The notes under the pieces: generated by a model
Seen by the model: only the letters and a program-made list of their open reading frames with translations
What the model was told of the DNA's origin: nothing
Databases searched by the model: none
Position numbers and translations under genes: made by a program
Part shown: positions 32,318-63,011 of the stretch, piece by piece
Layout of the letters: each line of letters begins with the position of its first letter
Numbering within the stretch: the first letter of the stretch is position 1
Sequence record: NC_134263.1
Length of the DNA: 64,000 nucleotides
Reading direction: 5' to 3' (one strand)
Origin: Escherichia phage T5_ev219

Positions 32318-32318
32318 A

Positions 32319-32486: not shown

Positions 32487-32506
32487 TTCGAAATCCTCTA
32501 TTAAAA

Positions 32507-32584: not shown

Positions 32585-32590
32585 ATTGTT

Positions 32591-32669: not shown

Positions 32670-32672
32670 ATA

Positions 32673-32831: not shown

Positions 32832-33042
32832 TTTGCTTTCCTTCCCTTCACTTTATAAGATATATTATACAGAGAATTAAGCAGAATAGCAAATGAATTT
32901 TTAATAAATTTACTTATTGTGTAGGCCACCTGGAGGCTATGAACCCCACGGCTGACAAAGAAGTTTGCGAGACCTCTCTTAAATGCCAGAATAGACCCGC
33001 CGATCTATCGGAACCTACATAATAAGTAAACTTTATAGTGTC

Positions 33043-33162
33043 ATTCTAGACAGGATTCGAACCTGTTATCACTTGTGCGGACTTACGAGAACCATTCTTT
33101 CACTCGAATCGAACGAGCTTCTGCCCTCGCCAAGTTGGTTTCCCCATCAACCACGCTAGAAT
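33043..33162 (-). other. 120-nt tRNA-like structured element (two T-arm-like hairpins inside a 7-bp closing stem)
   Basis: CTAGAAT/ATTCTAG pair at the ends; internal GGTTCGAATCC-like and TTCGATT hairpins. Confidence 0.3.
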
Positions 33163-33284
33163 GTTTGATTGTTTTCAGTGCAAGAGTCCGAGTCTTGGAC
33201 ACGACCGCTTCGCAAGTACATAGGCAGCTTATCATGAGTCAGCACTTCCGAATTGCTAGCTCCGTGTTCTGCACTGAAATTTTA

Positions 33285-33641
33285 TTAGTTTAACCGTAAA
33301 GTATTATCTACTTCACCATTAATTGTTCGGCATTCCTCTGGGATTGCCGGGGTGGCCTTGTATTCCCACCACTCAGCACCATCATATTCCCCACGTTCTA
33401 GCCAAGTTCCATCGGCAAACCATACATTACCATAAAGTAATTGTCCACCGTATCCAGAATCATATTCAAAGTCTAGGTTATTAAGAAAATCCTCAATATC
33501 TTCTTCTGCATAACCTAAAGGTAATACCCAAACTTTTTTATCCCCATAATACCCGAATTCTATTTTAATACACTTAACTTCAGAATTAGTATTTTTTAAG
33601 GCAAGTAACAGCTCTTCTTTAGCATTACGCATATTACGCAT
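33285..33641 (-). CDS. hypothetical protein
   Basis: Track ORF 33285..33728 trimmed to Met30 because the N-terminal extension runs into tRNA-Asp. Confidence 0.5.
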   Translation of the reverse strand: MRNMRNAKEELLLALKNTNSEVKCIKIEFGYYGDKKVWVLPLGYAEEDIEDFLNNLDFEYDSGYGGQLLYGNVWFADGTWLERGEYDGAEWWEYKATPAIPEECRTINGEVDNTLRLN

Positions 33642-33666
33642 AATATATTCCCATACTGGATTAATT

Positions 33667-33743
33667 TGGCGCGACCGATGGGATTTGAACCCACATTCTC
33701 TCCCGTGACAGGGGAGTACCATTACCAAGCCAGCCCCGGTCGC
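33667..33743 (-). tRNA. tRNA-Asp (GTC)
   Basis: Perfect acceptor; loop CTGTCAC. Confidence 0.75.
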
Positions 33744-33752
33744 ATAATTTAT

Positions 33753-33938
33753 TTACTCAGCTTTGAGTTTTTCAATAGCTGCATTAAGTTCTTTAAGAAA
33801 CTCTTTTCGTACATTAAGACGATTGAGACTTACTAGTATATCATGTTTAAGTTCTTCGATGTATTTCTTTTCAACTTCAATATTGTTGATAGTGCTATCA
33901 CGATGAACTTCTAACTGTGCAATTACATTCTTGGACAT
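33753..33938 (-). CDS. hypothetical coiled-coil protein
   Basis: 61-aa ORF. Confidence 0.4.
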   Translation of the reverse strand: MSKNVIAQLEVHRDSTINNIEVEKKYIEELKHDILVSLNRLNVRKEFLKELNAAIEKLKAE

Positions 33939-34040
33939 GCTTGTTTCCTCAGTTATTAATGAAAATGGTATCTGTGGCTGAATTCGATGTCAGCAATGAT
34001 AGCTGGTTGGCTACCGGTTTACTTAACTCTACACAGAATT

Positions 34041-34118
34041 TGGCGGTTCCTGCTGGATTCGAACCAGCAACCCTCAACTTAACAAGATGCCGCTCTAACC
34101 AATTAGAGCTAAGGAACC
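34041..34118 (-). tRNA. tRNA-Asn (GTT), tentative
   Basis: Perfect acceptor, D and T arms; weak anticodon stem; loop TTGTTAA. Confidence 0.55.
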
Positions 34119-34613
34119 ATATAAGTCAGAACTAGAGTTAATACGTTCTAGATATTTACTAAGATCCCTAGAATTTATACTAAACCACTCATGTTCTTTT
34201 AAATCTTTGAAATACTGGTGAATTAGTTTTTCACCTTTTCGTTTGTCAAACCAAAAAGACCAATGCTCTAACTTATAATCCCTATAAGGGGAATAAGTCT
34301 GATATTGAGCTAATCTCTCTTTTGGATTTTGACTCATACCTATTTTATACTGATTTTTCCATGCAGGATTACTAATACAGTATACAAAACCTTCAGAAAT
34401 AGGAAGTTTATTTTCCTGCTTAAACTTTATAAAGGAAAGTGCAGCAAGTTTTCTCGAATACATAGTATTTGTATTCTTTTTGGTATTACCATTGGTTCCT
34501 GAAAGATTTATATATTCTTCCATAAATCTCTGGATTAGTTCTGCGGTTATATAGAAGGGCTCATTAGTAACAACGCCTTTCTTTACCAAACTATCAAAAA
34601 CTTTTGTATGCAC
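34095..34613 (-). CDS. GIY-YIG-like domain protein
   Basis: 172 aa; GFVYCISNP...YKIGMSQNP..R pattern; last 7 codons and stop overlap the 5' end of tRNA-Asn. Confidence 0.55.
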   Translation of the reverse strand: MHTKVFDSLVKKGVVTNEPFYITAELIQRFMEEYINLSGTNGNTKKNTNTMYSRKLAALSFIKFKQENKLPISEGFVYCISNPAWKNQYKIGMSQNPKERLAQYQTYSPYRDYKLEHWSFWFDKRKGEKLIHQYFKDLKEHEWFSINSRDLSKYLERINSSSDLYGSLALIG

Positions 34614-34633
34614 TACTTCTTTCCTTTAGTAAT

Positions 34634-34709
34634 TTGGACGACCGCATGAGATTTGAACTCACATAAAAAGGATTTGCAATCCTTCGCCTAAGCCATTCAG
34701 CCAACGGTC
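34634..34709 (-). tRNA. tRNA-Cys (GCA)
   Basis: Loop TGCAAAT. Confidence 0.65.
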
Positions 34710-34897
34710 GATTTATCTTGTTTTTCGAGATCTTCAAATTCTAAATCATTGAAGTTCCCTAGAGTACGGGAGTAGAACCCGTCTCCTGCGTCATAGCCTG
34801 ATTTGCCACAATCACACATTTTAAATTCACGAAGATGTGTGAAAATATGCTCAGAACCACAACACTTAAATCTAACTAATCGTTTCATTAGTTTCAT
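34697..34897 (-). CDS. small zinc-ribbon-like protein
   Basis: 66 aa; CCGSEH...CDCG; 3' end overlaps tRNA-Cys 5' end. Confidence 0.45.
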   Translation of the reverse strand: MKLMKRLVRFKCCGSEHIFTHLREFKMCDCGKSGYDAGDGFYSRTLGNFNDLEFEDLEKQDKSTVG

Positions 34898-34946
34898 TAG
34901 CTTCTCCAGTTCAATTTATATAATTATTATATAGAACTTTTGGAAA

Positions 34947-35231
34947 CTAAGCAACTACATTTTTTAAGAATTTGATGTCTTTCTTCTTCTTATATTTCCA
35001 CGTTAATGGATTCTGTCGATTGTGAACGCTTGAGATCTTCGTCTCGTCAAAGTTCTTCAATATCATGTAATCACAAGATAATTGTTCTAATGGAATGTGA
35101 TCACCGTCAAAAGCATATACATAAGGCTGTTGACTAGCACGATAATGATAGACTTTGTTAATTCTACGTTTCAGCGACTTATCAGCGCAGTAAATAAAGA
35201 AGTTTTCAGGATGCATCAGCATCTCCTTCAA
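34947..35231 (-). CDS. hypothetical protein
   Basis: 94-aa ORF. Confidence 0.45.
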   Translation of the reverse strand: MKEMLMHPENFFIYCADKSLKRRINKVYHYRASQQPYVYAFDGDHIPLEQLSCDYMILKNFDETKISSVHNRQNPLTWKYKKKKDIKFLKNVVA

Positions 35232-35233
35232 TT

Positions 35234-35308
35234 TGGTGCACCCTGTTCGTATCGAACGAACCTCTCAAGCTCTTCAGGCAAGCGCTAATCCATCTCAGCT
35301 AAAGGTGC
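35234..35308 (-). tRNA. tRNA-Phe (GAA), tentative
   Basis: Good acceptor and T arm; loop CTGAAGA; partial anticodon stem. Confidence 0.55.
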
Positions 35309-35315
35309 AAATTTT

Positions 35316-35391
35316 GGCAAACCTACTAGGACTCGAACCTAGACCGTACGGTTTTGGAGACCGACATGCTGTCCAGTAACACTCTAGGAAT
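35316..35391 (-). tRNA. tRNA-like, Trp (CCA) anticodon arm but unpaired acceptor stem (possible pseudogene)
   Basis: Good D, anticodon and T arms and 3' CCA; 5' and 3' acceptor strands not complementary. Confidence 0.35.
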
Positions 35392-35399
35392 GCAGAAAT

Positions 35400-35476
35400 T
35401 GGCGTCCTGTGCGGGGATCGAACCCGCAAATCCTACCTTGAAAGGGTAGTGACTTTACCAGTTTGTCTAACAGGAC
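35400..35476 (-). tRNA. tRNA-Glu (TTC)
   Basis: Perfect acceptor and anticodon stems; loop CTTTCAA. Confidence 0.7.
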
Positions 35477-35483
35477 TTAAATT

Positions 35484-35574
35484 TGGTGTTGGATGATGGA
35501 GTCGAACCACCCGAGACCCTTCCGAGTCGGCAGATTTACAGTCTGCTTCGCTACCTCTACGATACTAATCCAAC
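35484..35574 (-). tRNA. tRNA-Tyr (GTA), class II
   Basis: 91 nt; perfect acceptor; anticodon stem GCAGA/TCTGC; loop CTGTAAA. Confidence 0.7.
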
Positions 35575-35702
35575 ATATTTAAAAGTATTCAAATACTAGT
35601 TTAAACACTTTTAAATATGTTTCCGAATTAGATAACTATTATACCAAGTTTTAAGGCACTGAGCAAGTCAAATTTTAAAGAACTTGCTCAGTGCTGTATT
35701 AG

Positions 35703-35978
35703 TTAGTCGAACTTAGGAGTGACAGTTAAGGAGAACGGAAGTTCGAAAACTTCTTCGCCCTCATTACTAACGGTAACTACACGACCTTTAAGTTCAGACA
35801 TTAAAATATCAATATCAGCTTTTGCATCTGGAGCCATGCCAGCTTCAATACATTTAGCTTTAACTTCCGGTAAAAGCTCTACGTTATAGAGATAGAGCCA
35901 CTCAATCTCACCTTCCCAGTCTTCCCAGGATTTGCAGATTGCACTTTCAATACCAGTTGCTACAACACGATTTTGCAT
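35703..35978 (-). CDS. hypothetical protein
   Basis: 91-aa ORF behind a family promoter. Confidence 0.5.
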   Translation of the reverse strand: MQNRVVATGIESAICKSWEDWEGEIEWLYLYNVELLPEVKAKCIEAGMAPDAKADIDILMSELKGRVVTVSNEGEEVFELPFSLTVTPKFD

Positions 35979-36068
35979 TAATTAACTCCTTCATCAATTT
36001 ATATAACTATTATACCAGAAATTTAAAGTAAAAGGCAAGTACATTTTTAAAAATTCTGTTTGGAGGAG

Positions 36069-36275
36069 CTAAACTCCAGATTTTTCGGCCAAGTCTAGAC
36101 TAATAAGAGTTATAGCCATAATTGCTGCACCGTGTTCTTTTTCTCCGGTGTTTTTAGCAGAGTCTATAATATCCTTAATCTGTTCGTAATAACTTTTTAC
36201 TTCTTGTTCAATGCCTGCCTCGGCTATCATGCCTTTAGCCATGAATCGTTGCATGGTAATTTCAGGATTAGCCAT
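36069..36275 (-). CDS. hypothetical protein
   Basis: 68-aa ORF. Confidence 0.45.
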   Translation of the reverse strand: MANPEITMQRFMAKGMIAEAGIEQEVKSYYEQIKDIIDSAKNTGEKEHGAAIMAITLISLDLAEKSGV

Positions 36276-36450
36276 GTTGTTTCTCCAGTTTCATTTTTAA
36301 TAGTTTACAGATGAAATCAACGTCTTCATCTGTGCCTAAGTCTCTATCCTCAAGGGTCGCCTTGAAGTTTTTCGTCAATTCCATGAGGATGATTTCCCTA
36401 GAACGACGTGTTGGCGGAGGTGGATGTCTATACATCTTATTTCCTTAATT

Positions 36451-36527
36451 TGGTAGGGGTGGTGGGATTCGAACCCACAAAACCTGAATTTTAAGTCCAG
36501 TACCTATGCCAATTCGATTACACCCCC
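36451..36527 (-). tRNA. tRNA with TAA anticodon (Leu codon UUA) but short variable loop
   Basis: 77 nt; good acceptor, anticodon and T arms; D-loop AATTGGCATA shared with 31792..31868. Confidence 0.55.
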
Positions 36528-36628
36528 GTGTAATCAGTTTATTAGTTGATACATATTATAGCCTAAAGAAAACCCTACTACTAATCCTACTAACCAACCA
36601 ATATAATAATCTTTTAATTTCACGGGTG

Positions 36629-36814
36629 TCAACCTCGTTCAATATCTAGAGAAATACCACAGGTAGGATTAATGCCTGTGCCTTTGCACGTCGGACAAAC
36701 CCAGATATTACAGAATGTATCCCCTGCTTCTGCATCAGAACTTTCTCCAACTCCTAGACAGTCAGGACAGGCACATTCTTCTAGCTCTTGCTTGAGTTCT
36801 TGAAACTTAGACAT
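36629..36814 (-). CDS. small zinc-ribbon protein
   Basis: 61 aa; CACPDC...CPTCKG. Confidence 0.5.
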   Translation of the reverse strand: MSKFQELKQELEECACPDCLGVGESSDAEAGDTFCNIWVCPTCKGTGINPTCGISLDIERG

Positions 36815-36823
36815 ATAGTTTCC

Positions 36824-37012
36824 TTATTCAATTACTTTTGAGGCTTCAAGGGAGTCGATATAGTGTACGTTTTCTACCATAATCATATAATCTGCCACTT
36901 TATCCATAGCCTGAGCTTCAGAGGTAGCCCTGGCTAACCTATATCCTTTTTTATATTCATCCGGGTATTCCCTATCTGGAATAAACACAACATAAACTAG
37001 GTATAGTTCCAC
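36824..37012 (-). CDS. hypothetical protein
   Basis: 62-aa ORF. Confidence 0.4.
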   Translation of the reverse strand: MELYLVYVVFIPDREYPDEYKKGYRLARATSEAQAMDKVADYMIMVENVHYIDSLEASKVIE

Positions 37013-37033
37013 TTGTAACCCCTCTAATTAAAC

Positions 37034-37111
37034 TGGTGGCTCCCCGAGGATTCGAACCTACGTACCTTCCGGTTATGAGCCGGGTGCTCATACCATATGA
37101 GCTTGAGAACC
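37034..37111 (-). tRNA. tRNA with CAT anticodon, E. coli fMet-like anticodon arm
   Basis: Anticodon arm CCGG-CTCATAA-CCGG; D stem GCTC/GAGC; weak T stem. Confidence 0.5.
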
Positions 37112-37117
37112 AGAATT

Positions 37118-37206
37118 TGGCGGAAGAAGTGGGAATCGAACCCACAAGGCTATATTTCAAACCGACAGATTAGCAATCTGCTGCAATACCGTTATGCTAT
37201 TCTTCC
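37118..37206 (-). tRNA. tRNA-Ser (GCT), class II
   Basis: 89 nt; perfect acceptor; loop TTGCTAA. Confidence 0.65.
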
Positions 37207-37310
37207 GAATTTATAAGATATATTATATTAGAAATTTAGCTTCATAGCAAGAAAATTTTTCAAGTTTTCGGTAGACATCTCATCCACATCTACAGGAGAA
37301 ACAAATCCAT

Positions 37311-37745
37311 TTAATTGTCTAGCAAATTTTCACCAGCAGGATCATTATCCCCAACAGCTACCAATTTAAAAGGTAATAATTTCAGTTGCTTTAATAACGC
37401 TTTTCCTGGAGAAGAACCCAACATTGCTAGGGCTGGATAACCAGCGTTATGTAACGCAACTGCCTTAAATACAGATTCAGCGATCAATACTACTTTTTCA
37501 TCTCCATTGAGAGTTTCTAGTCCCCATACACACTGGGTAGTAGAATAAGTAAAATATTTAGCTTCAAAGGGACACTTACCATGACCTTTTGGAGCAGAAG
37601 GATTATAAGTTTGATAGCCCCTCAACATCCCAGAGAAGTCATACAACGGGACTGTTAGCCATCCTTCCGGACTTAACCAGCAATGATATTTTTCTGTATC
37701 AAATCCTCTAGATAAGAGGTGCTGTGTTAGCTCATCAACATTCAT
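37311..37745 (-). CDS. Toprim-domain protein (primase-like C-terminal fragment)
   Basis: Track ORF trimmed to Met18 because Met1 lies inside the promoter; LIAESV...ALHNAG...AMLGSS...VGDNDPAG resembles DnaG Toprim motifs. Confidence 0.45.
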   Translation of the reverse strand: MNVDELTQHLLSRGFDTEKYHCWLSPEGWLTVPLYDFSGMLRGYQTYNPSAPKGHGKCPFEAKYFTYSTTQCVWGLETLNGDEKVVLIAESVFKAVALHNAGYPALAMLGSSPGKALLKQLKLLPFKLVAVGDNDPAGENLLDN

Positions 37746-37920
37746 ATCTGGTTCCTCTCTCAAATTTATAGATATATTATACAGAGAATTTAGCATTCAA
37801 GCAATCAAATTTTTTAACTTTTTAGAGGAAAATCATAGGGCACTTAAGGGCAGCAGATAAGTGGTGAGGACCAAAATTTGTGACCCCACTAAAAATCCGG
37901 GGGCAATTTTTAAAGACCCT

Positions 37921-37949
37921 TTGACATTTTCGCCGGGGTAGTGTAAAGT
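37921..37949 (+). promoter_or_regulatory. sigma70-like promoter for the plus-strand cassette
   Basis: TTGACA, 17-bp spacer, TAAAGT. Confidence 0.45.
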
Positions 37950-38011
37950 ATATGTTATGGATGAGTGATCAAAGAGACACACATTTTCTATATACTAGGA
38001 GGTGTCAAAAA

Positions 38012-38992
38012 ATGACAGAAGAAGTAGCTAAGAGTCCTGAGACCGTCGCTAGCGTAGCAGCAGAACTGCATCGTCACGAGGAATCAGATAAGAAAAAGTG
38101 GGAGAAGGTCAGAGCCTACGAAGAAGAACATCGTGAACACGATGATAAAGATGAAGAAGATGACGATGATGTACGTTGTCATAAATATGGAAAATATAAA
38201 ATGCAAGAACCAGTAAACGTATTTACTAACGGCTTCCCTGGCATGGGTGCATTCCCAGCTAACGCAAGTGCTTTCGGTGGAGAAGGTATGGGTCTATTCG
38301 GAGCTATCCTAATCGGTGCTCTATTAACCGGCGGATTTGGTGGTTTTGGTGGTTTTGGTCGTGGTGCTGGCGTTGCCGCTGAAGGAACCGCTGTGGACGC
38401 GATCCTTTCTAACCAGGATACTGCAAGTATTCTAGCTGCAATCAATACTACTCGTACAGAAGCTAACCAGGGCACTGGGGCTGTTCTAAGTGCAGTAAAC
38501 GGTGTGGGAGCTGCTCAAGCTGCTAGCACTCAGCAAGTTCTGACTACTATCTACGGTACAGGTGCTAATCTGTCAAACCAGATCTGTGCTGAAACTCGTA
38601 ACGTTATTCAGGGTCAGTTCGATCTTTCTCGTCAGATGGATCAATCTTTCGCTGCTAACCAGATAGCACGTGCTCAAGATAAGTTTGACTCTGCTCAGAT
38701 TGCTTTCCAGCAGTCTATTCAGACCAACAACCAGTTTGCCGCTGTTCAGGCTCAGATGTGCGCTAACCAGAACGCTATCGAACGTCAGCTTGCTGAATGT
38801 TGCTGTGAGCTTCAGACTGCGATCGCTGGTGTAACTACTGCACGTATCCAGGACGAACTGAATGAATGCCGTCTGCGCGAAGCAATCGCTGCAGGTAGCG
38901 GTGCAAATGGTCAGGTAATCAACCAAATCGCTGTAAGTCTTGGTGCTATCACTCAGACTCTGGCTGGTCTGCAGGCTAAACTGCCGGCTTAA
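38012..38992 (+). CDS. Gly/Ala/Gln/Asn-rich low-complexity protein with central hydrophobic Gly-rich segment
   Basis: Track ORF trimmed to MTEEVAK with AGGAGG RBS; acidic N-terminus, GMGLFGAILIGALLTGGFGGFGGFG segment, Q/A/N-rich C-terminus with ECCCEL. Confidence 0.6.
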   Translation: MTEEVAKSPETVASVAAELHRHEESDKKKWEKVRAYEEEHREHDDKDEEDDDDVRCHKYGKYKMQEPVNVFTNGFPGMGAFPANASAFGGEGMGLFGAILIGALLTGGFGGFGGFGRGAGVAAEGTAVDAILSNQDTASILAAINTTRTEANQGTGAVLSAVNGVGAAQAASTQQVLTTIYGTGANLSNQICAETRNVIQGQFDLSRQMDQSFAANQIARAQDKFDSAQIAFQQSIQTNNQFAAVQAQMCANQNAIERQLAECCCELQTAIAGVTTARIQDELNECRLREAIAAGSGANGQVINQIAVSLGAITQTLAGLQAKLPA

Positions 38993-39013
38993 AATTAAGG
39001 GGAGGAGCCCATT

Positions 39014-39430
39014 ATGAGTAAATATGGTTTTGTGAACAACGGATTTAATCAACCAATGGGCTCCCAGCAGCCCGTTCCGGGTCTGGATAATCCTTACCTA
39101 CAACAGTTGCAACAGCGTTTAGCAGAAGCGCAACAGATGCAGCAACAACTCCAGCAAAACCCTGGAAGTGTGAGTCCTATGCAAATGATGCAGCAAATGA
39201 GCGGGCAGTCGCAAATGCCTCAACAAATGCATCAACAGGTGACTCAGCAGCAAGTTCAGCAGCAAACCCAACAACCGCAGGTTTCTGCGGAAGGACAGGC
39301 AGTACTAGCCCTTTTCGAAGACTTCGCAAAGACAGAGGATGGGAAGCAGCTTGTATCACTTATGGGTAAGTTTAATAGCTTCTGCCAAAGCCAAATTGCA
39401 AAAGCTCAAAATAGCGGTAATAACTCCTAA
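39014..39430 (+). CDS. glutamine-rich low-complexity protein
   Basis: 138 aa; GGGAGG RBS; poly-Q/QQ-rich middle. Confidence 0.55.
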   Translation: MSKYGFVNNGFNQPMGSQQPVPGLDNPYLQQLQQRLAEAQQMQQQLQQNPGSVSPMQMMQQMSGQSQMPQQMHQQVTQQQVQQQTQQPQVSAEGQAVLALFEDFAKTEDGKQLVSLMGKFNSFCQSQIAKAQNSGNNS

Positions 39431-39439
39431 GGAGGAATT

Positions 39440-39634
39440 ATGTGTTGCAGAAAATCTGTTTCGTGCTGCCCAATGCCTGTAGCACGTTGTTGCTCTCCAG
39501 CAATGTTTACGCAAATACCGGCGTTCAATCCGTTTGCCTTTAAGCCTACTCTTATCCTGCCCCCTAGAGTAGATTTTCAGTCAAGATTGGCCTCCCGTAT
39601 GGGTGGTTGCTGTAACAAGAGTATATGGTTCTAA
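39440..39634 (+). CDS. Cys-rich small protein with four CC doublets
   Basis: 64 aa; AAGGAGG RBS; MCCRK..SCCP..RCCSP...GGCCNK. Confidence 0.5.
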   Translation: MCCRKSVSCCPMPVARCCSPAMFTQIPAFNPFAFKPTLILPPRVDFQSRLASRMGGCCNKSIWF

Positions 39635-39649
39635 GGAACCAAACAATAA

Positions 39650-39686
39650 AGCCCCTAGTCGAAAGACTTAGGGGCTTTTCTTTTAT
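39650..39686 (+). terminator. rho-independent terminator of the plus-strand cassette
   Basis: GC-rich hairpin followed by TTTTCTTTT. Confidence 0.7.
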
Positions 39687-39687
39687 C

Positions 39688-39735
39688 TTAAATACAGAAA
39701 AGCCCTGCGCTCTCCAGGGAACGCAGGGCTTACTT
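39688..39735 (-). terminator. rho-independent terminator downstream of SPFH gene
   Basis: 8-bp stem gccctgcg/cgcagggc then U-run on minus strand. Confidence 0.65.
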
Positions 39736-39754
39736 CGAATATTACGTGTGGGTA

Positions 39755-40702
39755 TTACTTGTTACGCATATCCATAATCATCTGGCCATCGTAACCAGTG
39801 CCAACCACAGTCTGCGGTACGCCACCTTGATATTTCTGAGCACGAATCATCTCAACTTCCAGTTGTTTCCAACGAATCATCTCAGGAGTAATGGTACGTT
39901 GCAGTGCGGCGTTAGCTTCAGCTTCTTTCTTAGCTGCGTACAGTTTAGCATCTGCGTCACGTTCATTAGCGATAGCTTGGTTGTTGCGAGCTTCACGATC
40001 TGCTTCTGCTTGTTTAACTTTTTGCTGTGCTTCCTGTTCAACACGAGCTAATTCAGCTTTAGCAGCATTAACCTGTTCTTCACGAACTTTGGTATTCTGT
40101 ACCTGTTCCATGATTACCGGTGGCAAAGTAATATCCTGAAGGAATACCTGCTTAACTGTGTAACCATATGGGCGTGCATACTCTTCAACTTCCTGTTGAA
40201 TTGCAGTTTGCAATTGAGCCTGAATTTTAGCATCAAACAAATCTTGTGCTTTAGGTACAGACTTACCAAACTCACGAATAGTAGACAGTAATTTTTCAGT
40301 TACATACTTGTCTAGTGCCTGATCCTGAGTACCTGCATTAATACGGTTAATCGGTGCCTTAGAACCATCAAACTGCAACATAACAGTCAGGTCAACAGTG
40401 GATTTAAACTTATCCTGACTAGGAACCTGAAGTTTATCTAATTTTACAGCAATATCTTTTGTACTGAAAGTATCGAAAGATGCAAACGGGTTTACAATAT
40501 GGAAACCAGGTAATACTGGATTAGGGTCTACTTTACCCAGGAATGTTTGAGTTTTAACCGTACCATCAGAAACAATAGTATATGAATTAAAAGCTAGGAT
40601 TAAACCTGCTAAACCAACTACAGCACCAATCCCCCAACGTTTAATAGTACGAATTACTTTCTGCTCAGAAGTTAGTTCTTTCATATTTTTAGTATTAAAC
40701 AT
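39755..40702 (-). CDS. SPFH/band-7 (prohibitin/HflC-like) membrane protein
   Basis: 315 aa; N-terminal TM, SPFH-like core, long Ala/Glu/Gln-rich coiled-coil tail; AAGGAA RBS. Confidence 0.65.
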   Translation of the reverse strand: MFNTKNMKELTSEQKVIRTIKRWGIGAVVGLAGLILAFNSYTIVSDGTVKTQTFLGKVDPNPVLPGFHIVNPFASFDTFSTKDIAVKLDKLQVPSQDKFKSTVDLTVMLQFDGSKAPINRINAGTQDQALDKYVTEKLLSTIREFGKSVPKAQDLFDAKIQAQLQTAIQQEVEEYARPYGYTVKQVFLQDITLPPVIMEQVQNTKVREEQVNAAKAELARVEQEAQQKVKQAEADREARNNQAIANERDADAKLYAAKKEAEANAALQRTITPEMIRWKQLEVEMIRAQKYQGGVPQTVVGTGYDGQMIMDMRNK

Positions 40703-40736
40703 ATATTTCCTTTGTTTTAGTTACAGTTAATAAAAT

Positions 40737-40811
40737 TGGCCGAGGTGACAGGATTCGAACCTGCATAAAGGAATTTAGAAGACTCCTGCCTCTCCCTTAG
40801 ACTACACCCCG
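40737..40811 (-). tRNA. tRNA-Arg (TCT)
   Basis: Anticodon stem GGAGT/ATTCC; loop CTTCTAA; CCA encoded. Confidence 0.65.
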
Positions 40812-41313
40812 TTTAAGTATTTTTAAGAACTCTCGTAAAAACTCTTAAAAATACAGACGATACCGGGAGAGTCATAAGTCTCACTCATTAAGTATTTCAA
40901 GACAAAATACAGTAACGTCTATTATTTTCCAGTTTAAGTCAGGGTGACTTAGTGGTTATGTCCTGCGGTATATTGAGGACTCGGTTAGGCTTGGGGTCAT
41001 GACTTCCCGCCTTTTGCTGCTACTCAACAGGAGTTATCGCGAATTACCTGTGCTATTGTGCACCATTAGTGACATCTCTCATGTCAGCATTTCCCACTTT
41101 GTGGATAGCTTGAAAAACTACTCCGATATGGAGAAAGAACTTCACTATCCTAGAATACCTTCTAAAGTTCTTCTTTAGCCTGGACATAGTTAAATCGTAA
41201 TAAAACTATTCAGCAGACTGGTTGGTTAGTCTGGAACCAACTACCGCGTGGTTTAGGCAGTGCGCAACTAACCTCGGAAGCTTTTACGTTAAAAGCATCA
41301 GTTATCCAGTTCT

Positions 41314-41385
41314 TACCGACCGTAGGATTCGAACCTACATCTTCCACCAGTTACGGCTTGGTAATACCAATTATACTAGGACGGC
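41314..41385 (-). tRNA. tRNA-like element (no encoded CCA; possible pseudogene)
   Basis: T arm GTAGG-TTCGAAT-CCTAC; acceptor with one mismatch; non-canonical anticodon loop. Confidence 0.3.
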
Positions 41386-41645
41386 AGTGTTACTACATAA
41401 GTGATTTCCACACCCCACTATTTATAAATTAGAGAAGAGTTTAGGGGAGAGGTTTCAGACGCCCCATTTTACACGTTCTAGCCACTAACCGGGATTGCCG
41501 CCCCCTGTGTACTAGTTTTCCAACTAACCCACCGACTCTATTCAATGCGCTCCGGTTGGGATTCTGCACTCAGCGTAATCGGCTCGCTGTTCTCTAATTT
41601 ATGAATATATTATACAGAATTTATAGGCATTTAGCAAATAAATTT

Positions 41646-58278: not shown

Positions 58279-58771
58279 TACTCCAATTATTTTTCTAGAC
58301 ATTGATGGGGTGCTTAATTCTAGCATCTCCCACCATCATGCACCTGATGATGAAAAGATTTTCTTTGGAAGTGACTGGGTTTTTAAACCGCTTCTCAAGG
58401 CTTTTCAGGACTTTATTCGTCCTTCTCCAATAATGATTGTTGGGGTATCTTCATGGTTCTCTGTCAGGAATGAGATGGAGAACGTTCAGATTATGACCGG
58501 ATTAGATCTTATCGATCGTTTTCTTGGTACAACGGATTTTACTGGTGGTGGGCTATCTAGGGGTAATTCTGTTCTTCGCTTCGTTGAAAAGCATAAGCTC
58601 AAACATTGGTGTGTGCTGGATGATGCTGGTGCTATGATGTATCAGTATCCAACGGTTATAGTCAACGGTAGAACCGGAATAAATCTTCAAGATTTAAGAG
58701 CTGTTAGCTATATGTTAGAATTTAGTCCAGATCTTGAAATGTGTAAAGCCCTACAAAAATTTAAGGTGTAA
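58265..58771 (+). CDS. HAD-superfamily phosphatase
   Basis: 168 aa; motif I FLDIDGVL, later VLDDAG. Confidence 0.55.
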   Translation: MEISNTPIIFLDIDGVLNSSISHHHAPDDEKIFFGSDWVFKPLLKAFQDFIRPSPIMIVGVSSWFSVRNEMENVQIMTGLDLIDRFLGTTDFTGGGLSRGNSVLRFVEKHKLKHWCVLDDAGAMMYQYPTVIVNGRTGINLQDLRAVSYMLEFSPDLEMCKALQKFKV

Positions 58772-58773
58772 AT

Positions 58774-59202
58774 ATGTTCAATAATATACTCTCTAAAGAG
58801 GCTAACCCGATATTGGTTAATTTTTGGCGTACTCTTCCAGCCAACCTGTACAATGAGGCTATTAATGATCTGAAAATATGGTGTGAGAATAATGAAATCT
58901 CCTTTGCTTTTAAGGGTGAGATTGAAGAAGCTCCCTGTATTGGTTTAATTGTGCAGGTAGAGGATGGTCTGGAAGAGATTGTCGGCTGGAAAGAGTTGGA
59001 TGAAATGGGGTTGGTTTTTGCATTAAACTATAAGCTATTTATGCCCAATAAACACCGTATTGTTGTTAATTATAAAACCAGTGAATCTCCTGGTTTTCAA
59101 GTTAATGAACACTACGGTTGGTCTTACTCACCGGAAGAAGTAAATGATGGTATCCAAAAACTTCGTCGTTTTGGTTATCAAATTCCCGGTTTAACTGCCT
59201 AA
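58774..59202 (+). CDS. hypothetical protein, paralog A of a tandem pair
   Basis: 142 aa; shares motifs with 59212..59604 (C[IV]G, W.EL, GL[IV].ALN..LF.P, GY.[IV]PGL). Confidence 0.55.
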   Translation: MFNNILSKEANPILVNFWRTLPANLYNEAINDLKIWCENNEISFAFKGEIEEAPCIGLIVQVEDGLEEIVGWKELDEMGLVFALNYKLFMPNKHRIVVNYKTSESPGFQVNEHYGWSYSPEEVNDGIQKLRRFGYQIPGLTA

Positions 59203-59211
59203 GGGGGCACA

Positions 59212-59604
59212 ATGGAACAAGTATATTGGCGTCAGATTGATCCTAGTTTGGTGAAGCGTGCTGAGAAGCTGCTACAACGTTGGTTGGGGGTAAGACAAGC
59301 CTCCTTCACTTTTCCGGAGCAGCAAATAGACGATCCCTGTGTTGGTGTTTTTCTATCAGGCTACGCTGGGGAATGGGAATTGGATTGGAATGAATTGTCT
59401 GCTATAGGTCTAATTGTTGCCCTAAATTTCTCTTTGTTCCATCCACGTGGTTTGGCCATATGTCGTGTGCCTGATGACGGTTGTTCGCCCTATCTTTTAC
59501 AGGTGGAAGATGATATTTGGGAGTACACTCCAGATATTCTCAAAGAAGCCAAAGAACAATTAAACCGTGTTGGGATCTATGTTCCGGGGCTAAATGATAA
59601 ATGA
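59212..59604 (+). CDS. hypothetical protein, paralog B of a tandem pair
   Basis: 130 aa; see paralog A. Confidence 0.55.
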   Translation: MEQVYWRQIDPSLVKRAEKLLQRWLGVRQASFTFPEQQIDDPCVGVFLSGYAGEWELDWNELSAIGLIVALNFSLFHPRGLAICRVPDDGCSPYLLQVEDDIWEYTPDILKEAKEQLNRVGIYVPGLNDK

Positions 59605-59625
59605 TTTTTATTAGTTGACCTCTGA

Positions 59626-59655
59626 TTACCGAGTCATTTTGGCTCGGTTTTCTCT
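59626..59655 (+). terminator. candidate rho-independent terminator
   Basis: accgag...ctcggt hairpin then TTTTCTC. Confidence 0.45.
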
Positions 59656-59695
59656 ATGCTCAAAGACACTGATAGCACCATCCGGAAAATTTTAC

Positions 59696-59724
59696 TTGCA
59701 GGATGCCCAAAATCTTGATATAAT
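59696..59724 (+). promoter_or_regulatory. sigma70 promoter with extended -10
   Basis: TTGCAG, 17 bp, TGaTATAAT. Confidence 0.55.
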
Positions 59725-60221
59725 ATTTATATTGAATTGAGAGACATTAGTAAAAATTGATTTTGCTAATTTTTCTTGTTTACAATCCGCGATACGGAAC
59801 AGTTAGGCTGCCCCATTAAGGGTTGTTTTAACTATTACTAGTGTTTATATTGCATTAGTTAATCTTCAATTAAGTGATCTGTGTACCCTGAATTCGGAAA
59901 GGTAAATCCAAACCGTGCATATTTAGCTCGTTATATAGGCAGAGTTTTATATGGGGGTGCGAACGAAAAGAGCAGCGAATGGCGGCACGTACAGTAGTCA
60001 CCTACCAATAGGATAGTGAGGACAAATAGAATCGGCTTAGCGGCCAATGACCTAGGTTCTATTCTGTATATGAGCGAAGAGAGCACAGCACTGAGATATG
60101 ATAACTTATTCATATTGTTTGATGATAATTGATGTTTACGTAAATAGTAGTAATAGTTGTTCTATTCTTTCTGAATAGTCCTAAAGAAAAGATTTCGATT
60201 AACCAACACAGGAGTATTGTT

Positions 60222-63011
60222 GTGTTTTCTATCCTCCAAGGTCACGCCGGATTTTCTCGTGATTTAGCAACAGGTATTTGGCGAGAAATCAAAGCGGAAG
60301 ATTATACCTTTGCCAAGCGATTCTCGAAAGAGCATCCAGAAGGTAAACCAGCTTCTATGCCCTTCAAATTTGATGTAATAGAAGAGCACGACCCACAAAG
60401 CCTTGCCGAAATGTTACCCCTTATGAGACGTTTAACGTCTGACCCTCATATCGTTGCGGTACGAGGTCGATGTCTTGCACCTAAAAATAATGTGCGACGT
60501 AAGAAAGGTAACTTTAATGTATCTAATCCTAGTAATATTATTGCTATGGACGTGGATGGTATCCTAGATACCGGTGGGTATGACAAATTTAATCTTGTTG
60601 GTATGGCCCGCCACATTATTAAGATGTTGAATAGTATTAGTGAGGACATGTTCCCTCTTGATGCAGGCTTTATAGCTCATGCATCGTCTTCGGCTGGGCT
60701 TAAACCAGGTATCCGAATGCACTTAATGCTAGAATCTAACGTCAAGGTAACTCAGGGTCAGCTAAAGTTCTTATTTACATCTATCAACGATAGTAGTAAG
60801 CAAAAATTTGGTTTTGATATTGCCGACCTAGCTTATTATTCATCTGTCCAGCTCCACTATTTTGCCGACCCCTTATTTAGCGATGGTATTGTTGATCCGT
60901 TTAAAGCGGAGAGTAAGCCACGTCTGGTGTATGTTAAAGGTTCGAAAGTAAATTTGCCCAATAATCTAGTTGACTATGAAACAACTAGAGGGGAGTTTAA
61001 GGAAGAGTTTTATTCTTTACTTGATCAAATTAAAGGCAAAAAGATTGCTTCTGATAAAGTAGAAGAAACCATCAGCGAGTTAGAAGAGGCTGATGATGGA
61101 GTGTATTTGCGTATTATCCCCAAACTATACCATAGAGCATTAGAGGATGGTGTTGATTTTGCATGGCTAGAACGTGAGATTAAACCAGCTTTATCCGAAT
61201 ATATTGCAACTAAAGATAACAGTCGTAATATTCAAGATTACTTTAATAACGGTCGTAAGCAGGCTCTCAAAGCGTTTGTTAATAATTCTAAACGTGAGAT
61301 TCCATTAAATCTGAAAGGTGTTCCACTTAAGAAATTAGAAGTGGATTCTCCACCAGAAGTTCCATACCTGAAGATTAACATTGTGCCCCCAAAAGGCCAT
61401 ATAACATTTGTTAAGGCAAGTCTTGGTACGGGTAAAACTACGGCAGTAACTAAATGGCTGGACGCAGGTGTTCTTCCGGGCAACTTTTTAGCAGTTACAA
61501 ATACTAGAGCACTGGTATCTTCAAATGCCAAGAAATTTAGTGCAGGACAATACGATAAGTCTGTAGATATGCTCAACTTTAAACGTGGGGCTATTGATCG
61601 TATGTCCACAACTATTCACTCTTTGCATAAGTTCAAAAGTTTTATTGGTCAAATAGACACCATTTTTATTGACGAATGTGACGCTGTAATGAATGACCTA
61701 TTATTCGCCCCTGTTGTTAAACAACGTCGCGAGTGTATTCAAGTTCTACGTGACATCCTCATGACAGCTAAAACTGTAATCTTATCCGATGGTGATATTA
61801 GTGCTGAGACTATTGAAGCATATGGTTCTCTAATTGATTTTGATAAACCGGTTGCATTTTATAATCATCATCGTAAGATGCTGTCAAAAGCTCATGCTTA
61901 TGAGTTCCCTGATGAGTCCAGTATTTGGGTTGCACTTCAAACATCTCTAGAGATGGGTGAAAAATCTATTCTAGTATCTGATTGTGGCCCTGATGAGCTG
62001 AATGAGAAGGGTATGGCACTACGTCGTAATACTGGTGCATTAGTTAAGGAAATCCATTCAAACTCCACATCTGATGTGGATATTAGACGTATTCTGGATT
62101 ACACAACTAATGAGCTAATTGATCAACAAATTGATTGCTTATTATGTAGTCCATCCGTAACGAGTGGAGTTGACTTCAACTACTTCGATAACGTATTTGT
62201 TATTACGAGAACTAGTAATCAAGCGCCAAACATGCGTTTTCAAGCAATCAGGCGCGACCGTGGTGCTCAGAATATCTATTATTTTATTGATAAATCCACT
62301 AGTGGGTTCTCCGCAGGTTCTGAACAATATAATATTGATGAAGGTTGGCTGGAGTTAGCACAGCAATTATACGCACGTCGCAGGGAGCTGGAATCTAGGA
62401 ACTATACTAGTACTTTACGTTATTACTTGCTTGATCAAGGTGCAACTATTGATATTTTCAGCGAAAGCTGGGGAACTATTGAAGGTGCTGGTAAAGAGTA
62501 CACAGAAGAGCGAATCAAAGCTATTCTACATTCAACTCCTGATTATTGTGCCCCACGTCATGCGGATGCGTATGAAGCTAAGCTACTTCTTGTTCGCTAT
62601 TATCATCTTGAGTCTATTAAAGATGTAACAGTTGAGCATGTTGAACAATATATCAAAGATAAGCCAAATGATCGAGCTGCATTCTTCCATAAGATGCACG
62701 AGATGTTCTGGGAGGATATTAAGAAGTGTTCAAATGTGACCATTAAACCATTCATAGAGGCTCTGAAAGGTAAGAAAAAGGACTTCTTCCTTAAAACAGG
62801 CCAGAGTGCGAACCCAAAATATGCAAGAATGTACCTCGGTATGATGGGTATTGGTAAGGATATGAACACTGAAAATATCGTAGACTGGTATAGAACCTAT
62901 TGTAAAATCGAGTGTATGCCAATTCCTTATAAGTTTATGACTGATGAGGAGAAACATATGCATGATGAAGCAATGTCAGAACTAGGTGCTAGAAATGACA
63001 GTGAAGAATAA
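60222..63011 (+). CDS. SF2 helicase-like P-loop NTPase, putative replication-origin-binding protein
   Basis: 929 aa; GTG start with ACAGGAG RBS; Walker A SLGTGKTT, Walker B FIDECDAV. Confidence 0.65.
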   Translation: MFSILQGHAGFSRDLATGIWREIKAEDYTFAKRFSKEHPEGKPASMPFKFDVIEEHDPQSLAEMLPLMRRLTSDPHIVAVRGRCLAPKNNVRRKKGNFNVSNPSNIIAMDVDGILDTGGYDKFNLVGMARHIIKMLNSISEDMFPLDAGFIAHASSSAGLKPGIRMHLMLESNVKVTQGQLKFLFTSINDSSKQKFGFDIADLAYYSSVQLHYFADPLFSDGIVDPFKAESKPRLVYVKGSKVNLPNNLVDYETTRGEFKEEFYSLLDQIKGKKIASDKVEETISELEEADDGVYLRIIPKLYHRALEDGVDFAWLEREIKPALSEYIATKDNSRNIQDYFNNGRKQALKAFVNNSKREIPLNLKGVPLKKLEVDSPPEVPYLKINIVPPKGHITFVKASLGTGKTTAVTKWLDAGVLPGNFLAVTNTRALVSSNAKKFSAGQYDKSVDMLNFKRGAIDRMSTTIHSLHKFKSFIGQIDTIFIDECDAVMNDLLFAPVVKQRRECIQVLRDILMTAKTVILSDGDISAETIEAYGSLIDFDKPVAFYNHHRKMLSKAHAYEFPDESSIWVALQTSLEMGEKSILVSDCGPDELNEKGMALRRNTGALVKEIHSNSTSDVDIRRILDYTTNELIDQQIDCLLCSPSVTSGVDFNYFDNVFVITRTSNQAPNMRFQAIRRDRGAQNIYYFIDKSTSGFSAGSEQYNIDEGWLELAQQLYARRRELESRNYTSTLRYYLLDQGATIDIFSESWGTIEGAGKEYTEERIKAILHSTPDYCAPRHADAYEAKLLLVRYYHLESIKDVTVEHVEQYIKDKPNDRAAFFHKMHEMFWEDIKKCSNVTIKPFIEALKGKKKDFFLKTGQSANPKYARMYLGMMGIGKDMNTENIVDWYRTYCKIECMPIPYKFMTDEEKHMHDEAMSELGARNDSEE

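What the first reader, a model, noticed from the sequence alone, without database searches (positions are those of the whole stretch)
59605..60221. 600-bp non-coding island upstream of the helicase-like gene: candidate origin or ncRNA
Between a terminator (59626-59655) and the 929-aa helicase-like gene lies ~570 bp with no credible ORF but an extended -10 promoter (TTGCAG-17-TGaTATAAT at 59696-59724) firing into it. A promoter-driven untranslated region next to the putative origin-binding helicase is the arrangement expected for a transcription-activated origin or a structured regulatory RNA.
Basis: inference. Interest (0 to 1): 0.55.

Follow-up and report, generated by a model that had tools for sequence, protein, structure and literature searches.

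The report
Large structured leader RNA before T5 D2
The "empty" 570 bp in front of the phage T5-type replication helicase gene D2 encodes a large, intricately folded RNA leader, conserved by compensating mutations across T5-like phages and matching no catalogued RNA family, so it probably controls or assists the start of phage DNA replication.

Summary
The window is a T5-like phage, 99.9% identical to EC100. A terminator (59628-59655) and a T5-type extended -10 promoter (59696-59724) precede about 490 nt with no conserved ORF, running up to the GUG start of D2 (60222).

The spacer is not neutral DNA, and it does not look like an iteron-type origin. It is a conserved, strand-specific, multi-helix fold:
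- two 5' hairpins;
- a roughly 40-bp AU-rich rod that closes a ~290-nt core with long-range helices;
- an invariant UUAGCG hexaloop and a candidate pseudoknot;
- a hairpin that holds the D2 start codon.

Compensatory changes support the fold within lineage A (12 pairs, 0/500 shuffles), within lineage B, and across six lineages (31 of 39 pairs in the modelled 143-nt domain). A covariance model built from lineage B alone recovers four other lineages (C-F).

G·U pairs, folding energies and the promoter place the structure on the + strand, so an RNA is the simplest reading. Rfam 15 has no match. The element precedes D2 in every Demerecviridae locus examined whose D2 N-terminus is at least 58% identical.

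The function is inferred. Most likely it is a cis-acting leader controlling D2 expression. A primer or R-loop role at an origin is not excluded.

The parts
59628..59655 (+). Rho-independent terminator ending the upstream operon (T5.100-107 homologues)
   Evidence: 9-bp stem plus T-tract. Annotated as a terminator in T5 records. Conserved in alignment A1.
59696..59724 (+). T5-type early promoter: -35 TTGCAG, 17-nt spacer, extended -10 TGaTATAAT. Equivalent to T5P32 of AY587007.
   Evidence: 8 matches of this promoter pattern against 0.03 expected. A promoter of this type is conserved in all lineages examined.
59731..60221 (+). Predicted ~490-nt 5' leader of the D2 mRNA. The transcription start near 59731 is inferred from the position of the -10.
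   Evidence: No + strand terminator-like site between 59731 and 60221. Leader length is held at 480-505 nt in lineages A-F, apart from carriers of the 97-nt insert and L059 at 531 nt. MFE -130.5 kcal/mol, z = -2.9 on the + strand; -98 kcal/mol, z = -1.8 on the - strand.
59746..59770 (+). P1 hairpin (AUUAGUAAAA / UUUUGCUAAU). The optional 97-nt insert of related phages enters after 59769.
   Evidence: Different complementary sequences occupy this position in IME260, DU_PP_V and L062, read directly. Insert.
59782..59826 (+). P2 hairpin with the conserved core UAC-RG-AA-CRG-UUMGG-CYG
   Evidence: RNAalifold on A4 and A5. Inter-lineage changes CAG/CUG to CGG/CCG and GG/CC to AG/CU.
59829..59869 (+). 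5' strand of the long AU-rich rod (P3) that closes the central domain
   Evidence: Inverted repeats I1 and I4. 35 pairs predicted in A4, all but two cells paired. The 9-bp core covaries in six lineages.
60119..60159 (+). 3' strand of the rod (P3). It falls inside the AT-rich stretch that resembles a DNA-unwinding element.
59873..59884 (+). 5' strand of long-range helix P4, including the conserved GAUCU. It pairs with 60083-60092.
   Evidence: CUGUGU/GCACAG here. Related lineages carry CUGCGU/GCGCAG, CUACAC/GUGUAG, CUAGAA/UUCUAG, CUGUAU/GUACAG and CUGCAU/GUGCAG. Pairs changed on both sides within A and within B.
60083..60092 (+). 3' strand of P4
59885..59988 (+). X sub-domain (P5, hairpins, P7 equivalent). 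This is the least certain part of the fold in lineage A.
   Evidence: P5, P6 and P7 covary in lineages B-F. In A, only P5 (ACCCU/GGGGU) and the RNAalifold hairpins are defined.
59989..60069 (+). Y sub-domain: Y1 (59989-94 / 60064-69), Y2 hairpin (59997-60023), Y3 (60025-33 / 60055-63), and Y4 hairpin GGC-UUAGCG-GCC (60034-60045) with an invariant hexaloop
   Evidence: Pairs changed on both sides in Y1, Y2 and Y3 within lineage A. Cross-lineage covariance-model alignment: 31 of 39 pairs with changes on both sides. The UUAGCG hairpin lies about 185 nt before the D2 start in lineages A-F, and further upstream in G and H.
60095..60116 (+). H13 hairpin (GAUAUGA / UCAUAUU)
   Evidence: A-U to G-C double changes within A. 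AGUGG/CCACU to AGGGG/CCCCU within B.
60162..60178 (+). P14 hairpin (CUAUUC / GAAUAG) between the rod and the ribosome-binding site. No U-tract follows, so it is not a terminator.
   Evidence: Different complementary sequences in other lineages.
60205..60226 (+). Translation-initiation hairpin: SD GGAG (60211-60214) in the loop, GUG start codon (60222-60224) in the stem
   Evidence: The 5' partner follows the start codon: AACAC/GUGUU, AACAU/AUGUU (IME260) and AACAA/UUGUU (Pantoea-type).
60222..63011 (+). D2 gene (T5.108): 929-aa bipolar helicase, annotated 'replication origin binding protein'
   Evidence: Biochemistry in PMC3632103.

Best explanation
Shown: host RNA polymerase has a conserved T5-type early promoter at 59696-59724. 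The ~490 nt between that promoter and the D2 start codon are constrained to fold, on the + strand, into one elaborate structure. It comprises:
- two 5' hairpins;
- a ~40-bp AU-rich rod;
- a ~290-nt core held by long-range helices (P4, Y1, Y3);
- an invariant UUAGCG hexaloop;
- a candidate loop-to-strand pseudoknot;
- a hairpin that encloses the D2 start codon.

Inferred: the element works as RNA, as the 5' leader of the D2 mRNA, and acts in cis to set how much D2 is made and when. The likely routes are control of start-codon and SD access and/or of mRNA processing and stability. The rod has the dimensions of an RNase III substrate. The large conserved core suggests that it binds a partner (protein, metabolite or RNA) that has not been identified.
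For: Conserved synteny:
- Terminator, promoter and an ORF-free gap of 533-886 bp (about 600 bp in most) precede D2 in every Demerecviridae locus whose D2 N-terminus is at least 58% identical.
- Leader length is held at 480-505 nt in lineages A-F, apart from insert carriers and L059, even though the centre is only ~40% identical between lineages A and B (whole-leader identity 64%).

Covariation:
- Lineage A alone (unambiguous alignment): 139 predicted pairs, 99.6% of cells paired, 12 pairs changed on both sides against 5.5 in shuffles (0/500) and 0-1 with slid partners.
- Lineage B alone gives the same topology at the same columns, with 5 pairs changed on both sides.
- A covariance model trained only on lineage B finds lineages C-F at the expected site (E from 1e-16 to 1e-4).
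- In that alignment 31 of 39 pairs change on both sides, against 15.6 in shuffles (0/500) and 7-12 with slid partners.
- A second-round model also reaches lineages G and H (E from 1e-3 to 1e-2).
- Manual table of 15 helices: 96% paired within a lineage, 61% when strands are swapped between lineages, 0 of 20,000 permutations as good.

Strand:
- 15% of paired cells are G·U, so only 85% would pair on the other strand.
- Consensus folding energy is -116 kcal/mol on the + strand against -87 and -95 on the - strand.
- MFE z-score is -2.9 on the + strand against -1.8 on the - strand.

Link to D2:
- No terminator-like site lies between the promoter and D2.
- The base that pairs with the first letter of the start codon changes with it: C-G for GUG, U-A for AUG, A-U for UUG.

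Not coding.
Against: - No transcript, 5' end, processing site or ligand has been observed. Transcription and the cis-regulatory role are both inferred.
- The covariance model recognises lineage A, which includes this window and T5, only marginally (E about 0.4, though at the correct place). Homology of the A core to the others therefore rests on position, shared sequence islands and topology.
- The manual helix table was assembled by eye, and the covariance-model alignments are fitted to the structure. Both inflate the pairing percentages.
- L045 (lineage G) has a consensus promoter directly upstream of D2, and L044 (DU_PP_V) a weaker match that lies inside the rod's 3' strand. In those phages D2 could be expressed without the leader, which would favour a role independent of D2 translation.
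- A core of about 290 nt is much larger than a typical translational operator.
Confidence: 0.55

Rival explanations
1. Transcription-activated replication origin. The promoter-driven transcript forms an R-loop or is processed into a primer, as with ColE1 RNA II or the T4 and T7 primary origins, or it loads D2 onto DNA. The conserved fold would then serve primer or R-loop formation rather than gene regulation. A variant is that the + strand folds as single-stranded DNA and acts as a priming signal.
For: - The element sits directly beside the gene annotated as origin-binding helicase. Its authors suggest D2 has an initiator role, and cite EM evidence for multiple internal T5 origins.
- A strong promoter fires into about 490 nt of untranslated sequence.
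- An AT-rich stretch with 25% GC lies at 60100-60199.
- From my own knowledge, not tested here: ColE1 RNA II is also a ~550-nt primer precursor whose function depends on its structure.
Against: - No iterons or multi-copy repeats; only weak two-copy matches.
- The AT-rich stretch overlaps one strand of the base-paired rod.
- No promoter-like site on the - strand inside the leader that could give an antisense regulator.
- The fold reaches into the ribosome-binding site and start codon, which points to translation.
- No T5 origin has been mapped to sequence in the papers I could read.
Confidence: 0.15
2. A trans-acting large non-coding RNA. The core is released from the leader, for example by RNase III cleavage in the rod. 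It then acts elsewhere, for instance as a decoy or sponge for a host factor or defence system, or as an RNA scaffold like GOLLD or ROOL.
For: - Size and complexity are those of 'ornate' large RNAs, which are often phage-borne and of unknown function.
- The ~40-bp rod could be a processing site.
- The core exists as two very divergent alleles between nearly identical flanks, a pattern seen in modules under diversifying selection or exchange.
- A second promoter-like site lies next to D2 in two lineages.
Against: - No Rfam family matches, including GOLLD, ROOL and OLE.
- The element is always found in the same place and orientation, immediately upstream of D2.
- No terminator separates it from D2.
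- No evidence of processing.
Confidence: 0.22
3. The region encodes one or more small proteins that annotation pipelines have missed or called inconsistently.
For: Some GenBank records annotate 'hypothetical proteins' inside the region. ORFs of 38-60 aa exist on both strands.
Against: - No ORF is conserved in position or sequence between lineages.
- No codon periodicity in variable sites.
- No PHROG match.
- Substitutions are explained by base-pair conservation.
Confidence: 0.03
4. A neutral spacer, or the decayed remnant of a lost gene or mobile element.
For: The central 300 nt differ strongly between lineages A and B.
Against: - Length and topology are conserved.
- There is an excess of compensatory changes over the shuffle and slid-partner controls.
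- Sequence islands are kept across at least six lineages.
Confidence: 0.02

Closest known systems
Large 'ornate' bacterial and phage RNAs (GOLLD, ROOL, OLE; the ~800-nt abundant ICP1 transcript)
   Same: Several hundred nucleotides long, many covarying helices, pseudoknot-level complexity, frequent phage association, function unknown.
   Different: No covariance-model match to any of them. This RNA lies in a fixed cis position as the leader of one particular gene, and its fold includes that gene's start codon. It is smaller, with a ~330-nt closed domain (the rod plus a ~290-nt core).
ColE1 RNA II and the transcription-activated phage origins (T4 ori(uvsY)/ori(34), T7 primary origin)
   Same: A promoter firing into about 500 nt of untranslated, structured or AT-rich sequence next to replication functions. 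This comparison rests on my own knowledge.
   Different: No antisense promoter and no demonstrated R-loop or RNase H site. The AT-rich tract is paired within the RNA model. The transcript continues into a translated gene.
Structured regulatory mRNA leaders (riboswitches, T-box leaders, ribosomal-protein and phage translational operators such as those of T4 gene 32 and gene 43)
   Same: A 5' UTR element with conserved junction nucleotides, and a downstream hairpin that involves the SD and start codon.
   Different: Two to five times larger than typical operators or aptamers. No known aptamer consensus matches (Rfam negative), and the ligand or partner is unknown.
RNase III processing sites of phage early mRNAs (T7 R sites, lambda N leader)
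   Same: An extended, imperfect double-stranded stem in an early transcript upstream of a gene. This comparison rests on my own knowledge.
   Different: Here the stem closes a ~290-nt conserved core instead of being a simple hairpin. Cleavage has not been tested.

Membership tests
Any Rfam 15 family (4227 covariance models, including GOLLD, ROOL, OLE, riboswitches, group I/II introns, RNase P and tmRNA) | Score against the family covariance model at E <= 1 | tested here: not met
   No match in window 58500-61000. In ten related loci the only hits were two sub-threshold matches at terminator hairpins. ARAGORN finds no tRNA or tmRNA here.
Iteron-type replication origin | Three or more direct repeats that bind the initiator | tested here: not met
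   The repeat finder returned only two-copy families of 69-100% identity.
Iteron-type replication origin | AT-rich DNA-unwinding element next to the repeats | tested here: inconclusive
   GC is 25% at 60100-60199, but this stretch overlaps one strand of the base-paired rod.
ColE1 RNA II-type primer origin | Promoter about 500 nt upstream, with a structured untranslated transcript | tested here: met
   Promoter at 59696-59724 and a ~490-nt structured leader.
ColE1 RNA II-type primer origin | Antisense regulator RNA transcribed from the opposite strand of the leader | tested here: not met
   No - strand promoter-like site within 59731-60221.
ColE1 RNA II-type primer origin | Persistent RNA-DNA hybrid and RNase H cleavage that give a DNA-synthesis start | not testable with these tools
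   Needs marker-frequency analysis, 2D gels or in vitro R-loop assays.
Cis-regulatory structured mRNA leader (riboswitch or operator type) | Lies between the promoter and the regulated ORF on the same strand, with no intervening terminator | tested here: met
   The arrangement is conserved in all lineages.
Cis-regulatory structured mRNA leader (riboswitch or operator type) | Secondary structure supported by covariation | tested here: met
Cis-regulatory structured mRNA leader (riboswitch or operator type) | Expression platform that involves the SD or start codon | tested here: met
   Hairpin 60205-60226 has the SD in its loop and GUG in its stem, and the start codon covaries with its pairing partner. 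Whether this pairing switches has not been tested.
Cis-regulatory structured mRNA leader (riboswitch or operator type) | Identified ligand or binding partner and a regulatory response | not testable with these tools
   Needs reporter fusions, in-line probing and pull-downs.
RNase III processing site | About 20 bp or more of near-continuous double-stranded RNA | tested here: met
   The rod has 35 predicted pairs in two segments separated by small bulges.
RNase III processing site | Cleavage by RNase III | not testable with these tools
   Needs an rnc host or in vitro cleavage.

The most novel reading that the evidence does not exclude
This is a previously unrecognised class of large pseudoknotted RNA that links early transcription directly to initiation of T5 DNA replication. 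Two versions are possible. In one it is a structured primer, R-loop former or D2-loading RNA at the long-sought T5 origin. In the other it is a very large ligand- or protein-sensing switch that gates synthesis of the initiator helicase. Its two interchangeable core alleles (T5-type and chee24-type) would then be specificity variants.
Probability: 0.2. Interest if true: 0.9.

Novelty: new variant of a known kind. Interest (0 to 1): 0.68.

Why it matters
T5 is a classical model phage, yet its replication origin and the control of its replication genes are still undefined at the sequence level. The three T5 genome records leave this region blank apart from a promoter and a terminator.

A ~490-nt RNA leader that covaries across genera, sitting directly before the essential helicase D2, gives a concrete and mutable target. 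Disrupting and then restoring single helices would test whether the RNA controls D2 translation, mRNA processing or replication initiation.

It would also add a well-supported large RNA class from a tractable virulent coliphage. Large structured RNAs with strong covariation support are scarce, and most have unknown functions. This one comes with natural variants useful for structural work: two core alleles and an optional 97-nt insert.

Tried and rejected
- Rfam searches of the window and of ten related loci found nothing.
- tRNA and tmRNA scan: none in the region.
- Repeat and iteron search: only chance-level two-copy repeats, plus the inverted repeats that form the rod.
- Small-protein hypothesis rejected.
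- Second promoter-like site TTGATT-18-TACAAT at 59757-59786: discounted, because the 97-nt insert present in 51 phage records separates its two hexamers.
- The 97-nt insert as a dispersed mobile element: rejected. It has no copy elsewhere in the window and exactly one place per genome, always at this locus.
- MAFFT Q-INS-i structural alignment was unavailable. Plain MAFFT misaligned the UUAGCG loop between lineages. I therefore used within-lineage alignments, a manual helix table and covariance models.
- Vibrio Demerecviridae also have 600-1100 nt of ORF-poor sequence before their obp gene. They gave no motif or covariance-model match, and the one I folded showed no excess stability (z = -0.4). 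I do not claim they are related.
- Literature searches found no description of this RNA. The retron anti-defence (Rad) and D10-helicase papers concern other loci. The 1976 EM paper on T5 origins is not held.
- An 11-nt tetraloop-receptor-like pair (UAUGG / CCUAAAG) and RNase P-like 'ACAGAAC..GGCU' strings were considered by eye and dropped as coincidences. They do not fit the helix model, and Rfam was negative.

Full report
**Identity of the window.** The 901 bases around the finding are 99.9% identical to Escherichia phage EC100 and 98.6% identical to phage T5. The flagged interval lies between the T5.107 homologue (59212-59604) and the 929-aa gene D2 (T5.108; 60222-63011). D2 is annotated as 'replication origin binding protein'. 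It has been characterised biochemically as a bipolar helicase, and its authors suggest a role in replication initiation. Across this interval the three T5 GenBank records annotate only a terminator and a putative early promoter, named T5P32 in one of them.

- The terminator is at 59628-59655.
- The promoter is TTGCAG, a 17-nt spacer, then TGaTATAAT, at 59696-59724. The generic sigma-70 scan skipped it because its -35 hexamer matches only 3 of 6 positions. The T5-style pattern TTGC-N16-TGNTATAAT occurs 8 times in the window against 0.03 expected, and this is the only + strand copy.
- The 566 bp from the terminator to D2 hold only 38-60-aa ORFs.
- These ORFs are not conserved between related phages and show no codon periodicity: 30/33/19 variable sites by frame position, against 21/15/80 in D2. 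None matches a PHROG family.

**Comparative picture.**
- DNA similar to the region occurs in 532 phage records.
- I collected D2 loci from IMG/VR, metagenomes and GenBank.
- Every Demerecviridae locus whose D2 N-terminus is at least 58% identical has the same arrangement: terminator, T5-type promoter, then an ORF-free gap before D2. The gap is about 600 bp in most and ranges from 533 to 886 bp.
- These loci fall into eight lineages:
  - A: T5, this window, Epseptimavirus
  - B: chee24- and DT57C-like Tequintavirus
  - C: Klebsiella Sugarlandvirus
  - D: Pectobacterium DU_PP_V
  - E: L062
  - F: Pantoea AAS21 and L059
  - G: L045 and L046
  - H: Providencia PR1 and PSTCR5
- From the predicted start (about 59731) to the D2 start codon, the leader is 480-505 nt in lineages A-F, apart from carriers of a 97-nt insert and L059 at 531 nt.
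- The central ~300 nt are only ~40% identical between A and B (by inspection; whole-leader identity is 64%), while their flanks are almost identical.
- Short islands persist throughout: ACRGAAC, GAUCU, (G)CUUAGCGG and GUUGCC. In lineages A-F the UUAGCG motif sits about 185 nt before the D2 start.
- Conserved length, divergent sequence and a few fixed islands are the usual signature of a structured RNA.

**The fold** (window coordinates in the parts list).
- P1 and P2 are hairpins just after the transcription start.
- An AU-rich rod (59829-59869 with 60119-60159, 35 predicted pairs) closes the central domain.
- Inside it, long-range helix P4 (59873-84 with 60083-92) encloses an X sub-domain (P5, P6, P7) and a Y sub-domain.
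- The Y sub-domain is Y1, the Y2 hairpin, Y3, and the Y4 hairpin GGC-UUAGCG-GCC at 60034-60045.
- Hairpin H13 follows, then hairpin P14 outside the rod.
- Last comes a hairpin (60205-60226) with the Shine-Dalgarno sequence in its loop and the GUG start codon in its stem.
- A candidate pseudoknot joins the P6 loop to the single strand 3' of the UUAGCG hairpin. In one common register it reads GAGG/CCUC in B, UAGAG/CUCUA in F and UUAAGG/CCUUAA in D (CCUUAG in E). That amounts to three positions with compensating changes.

**Statistical support.**
- Lineage A alone (14 sequences, 88-99% identical, so the alignment is unambiguous). RNAalifold predicts 139 pairs and 99.6% of cells are paired. Twelve pairs change on both sides, against 5.5 in column shuffles (0 of 500 reach 12) and 0-1 when the partners are slid by 1-3 columns.
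- Lineage B alone (18 sequences). The same topology appears at the same columns, with five pairs changed on both sides. Two of them are in P4.
- Across lineages. A covariance model built only from lineage B for the 143-nt Y domain finds lineages F, E, D and C at full length, at the expected place (E from 1e-16 to 1e-4). In the resulting alignment 93.4% of cells pair. 31 of 39 pairs change on both sides, against 15.6 in shuffles (0/500) and 7-12 for slid partners. The covariation score is 0.69 against 0.22.
- A second-round model also reaches lineages H and G (E from 1e-3 to 1e-2). It reaches lineage A only marginally (E about 0.4), though at the correct coordinates.
- Manual table of 15 helices. 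Strands from the same lineage pair in 466 of 485 positions. Strands swapped between lineages pair at 61%. None of 20,000 permutations came close, the maximum being 381.
- Caveats. The manual table was chosen by eye, and the covariance-model alignments are fitted to the structure. The within-lineage tests do not share those biases.

**Strand and molecule.**
- Fifteen percent of paired cells are G·U. On the opposite strand these would be A·C mismatches, leaving 85% paired.
- Consensus folding energy is -116 kcal/mol on the + strand, against -87 and -95 on the - strand.
- The window's leader folds at -130.5 kcal/mol (z = -2.9) on the + strand, against -98 (z = -1.8) on the - strand.
- The structure starts a few nucleotides after a conserved promoter that points the same way, and no terminator follows before D2. 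An RNA is therefore the simplest reading. Single-stranded + strand DNA cannot be formally excluded.

**What it does (inferred).**
- The base opposite the first letter of the start codon tracks it: C with GUG, U with AUG in Sugarlandvirus, A with UUG in the Pantoea-type phages, and U·G in Epseptimavirus. Start-codon pairing is therefore under selection, which ties the leader to D2 translation.
- The rod has the dimensions of an RNase III substrate. Cleavage there would change the 5' end of the D2 mRNA or release the core.
- The single strand next to the UUAGCG hairpin is pyrimidine-rich and resembles an anti-SD sequence (CCUCCUUA in DU_PP_V). Its pseudoknot partner resembles an SD. A switch between this partner and the real SD is conceivable, but it rests on 4-6-nt matches and remains only an idea.
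- My preferred reading is a cis-acting leader that sets D2 expression, probably by binding an unidentified partner.

**The origin hypothesis.** It has circumstantial support: the location beside the putative initiator gene, the promoter and an AT-rich tract. It has no positive sequence evidence. There are no iterons and no antisense promoter, and the AT-rich tract overlaps one strand of the base-paired rod. An RNA II-like primer or R-loop function would be compatible with everything seen, so it stays a live rival, as does a processed trans-acting RNA.

**Comparison with known systems.**
- No Rfam 15 family matches the window or ten related loci.
- The five literature searches I could run (a sixth and seventh failed on input errors) found no description of this RNA.
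- In size, complexity and phage association it resembles the 'ornate' large RNAs GOLLD and ROOL and the unexplained abundant ICP1 transcript. It differs in being locked in cis to one gene, start codon included.
- It works like a regulatory leader but is several times larger than known operators or aptamers.
- I class it as a new variant of a known kind: a new family of large structured leader RNA.

**Limits.**
- Transcription, processing, the binding partner and any replication role are all untested.
- The X sub-domain of lineage A is poorly defined.
- Homology of the lineage A core to the others rests on position, sequence islands and topology, not on a significant covariance-model score.
- Relatedness to the long spacers upstream of obp in Vibrio phages is not supported.

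Noticed in passing
Insertion point in window 59769/59770; present in L005, L007, L026, L033 and L048: An optional ~97-nt module is inserted into the 3' side of hairpin P1. It contains its own inverted repeat (ATTTACGG...CCGTAAAT) and is flanked by direct repeats TTTTTCTT. It occurs in 51 phage records on both lineage A and lineage B backgrounds and in Yersinia phiR2-01, always as a single copy at this locus. This window lacks it.
   Followed up: partly
Window ~59845-60150, compared with L004, L005, L015 and L032: The central ~300 nt of the leader exist as two very divergent alleles of equal length (T5-type A and chee24-type B, ~40% identical) between flanks that are nearly identical. Locus L027 has an A-type core joined to a B-type spacer before the ribosome-binding site. 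This suggests module exchange by recombination. The allele tracks the D2 N-terminus type: at least 92% identity to this window with A, about 88% with B.
   Followed up: partly
Window 58774-59202 and 59212-59604: The two genes just upstream (T5.106 and T5.107 homologues, 142 and 130 aa) are tandem paralogues: 31% identity over 124 aa, E = 5e-19. Both end in a G(Y/I)x(I/V)PGL motif.
   Followed up: partly
Window 20019, 27685, 29824, 32191, 35638, 50774, 54371 (- strand) and 59696 (+ strand): Eight exact matches to the T5-type promoter pattern TTGC-N16-TGNTATAAT, against 0.03 expected by chance. Seven are on the - strand. The one upstream of D2 is the only + strand copy.
   Followed up: no
L006:1140-1592 (Salmonella phage SP76); L015:798-995 (phage HASG4): Some relatives carry an extra ORF between the T5.107 homologue and the terminator-promoter pair: 150 aa in SP76 and 65 aa in HASG4. 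The leader itself is left intact.
   Followed up: no
L065:325-1429 (Vibrio phage phi 3); L064:704-1339; L066:685-1414: Vibrio-infecting Demerecviridae also have 600-1100 nt of ORF-poor, GC-richer sequence, starting at a promoter-like site, upstream of their obp gene. They share no motif with the T5-type leader and gave no covariance-model hit. The one I folded showed no excess stability (z = -0.4). Several records annotate 30-55-aa ORFs there.
   Followed up: partly
L007 (YZU-L1) CDS 1614-; L004 (saus111K) CDS 1944-: The D2 start is annotated inconsistently between records. One record starts it 99 nt upstream, inside the leader. Another starts it 324 nt downstream of the conserved GUG/AUG/UUG-UUU-UCU start.
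   Followed up: no
Window 29239-41386, - strand: A cluster of 23 tRNA genes, including a tRNA-Ser with anticodon ACT. This is the usual T5 tRNA region.
   Followed up: no
L045:1935-1964; L044:1905-1933: Two lineages have an additional promoter-like site directly upstream of D2. In L045 it is a perfect TTGACA-18-TATAAT. In L044 it is a weaker match inside the rod's 3' strand. In those phages D2 might be expressed independently of the leader.
   Followed up: no
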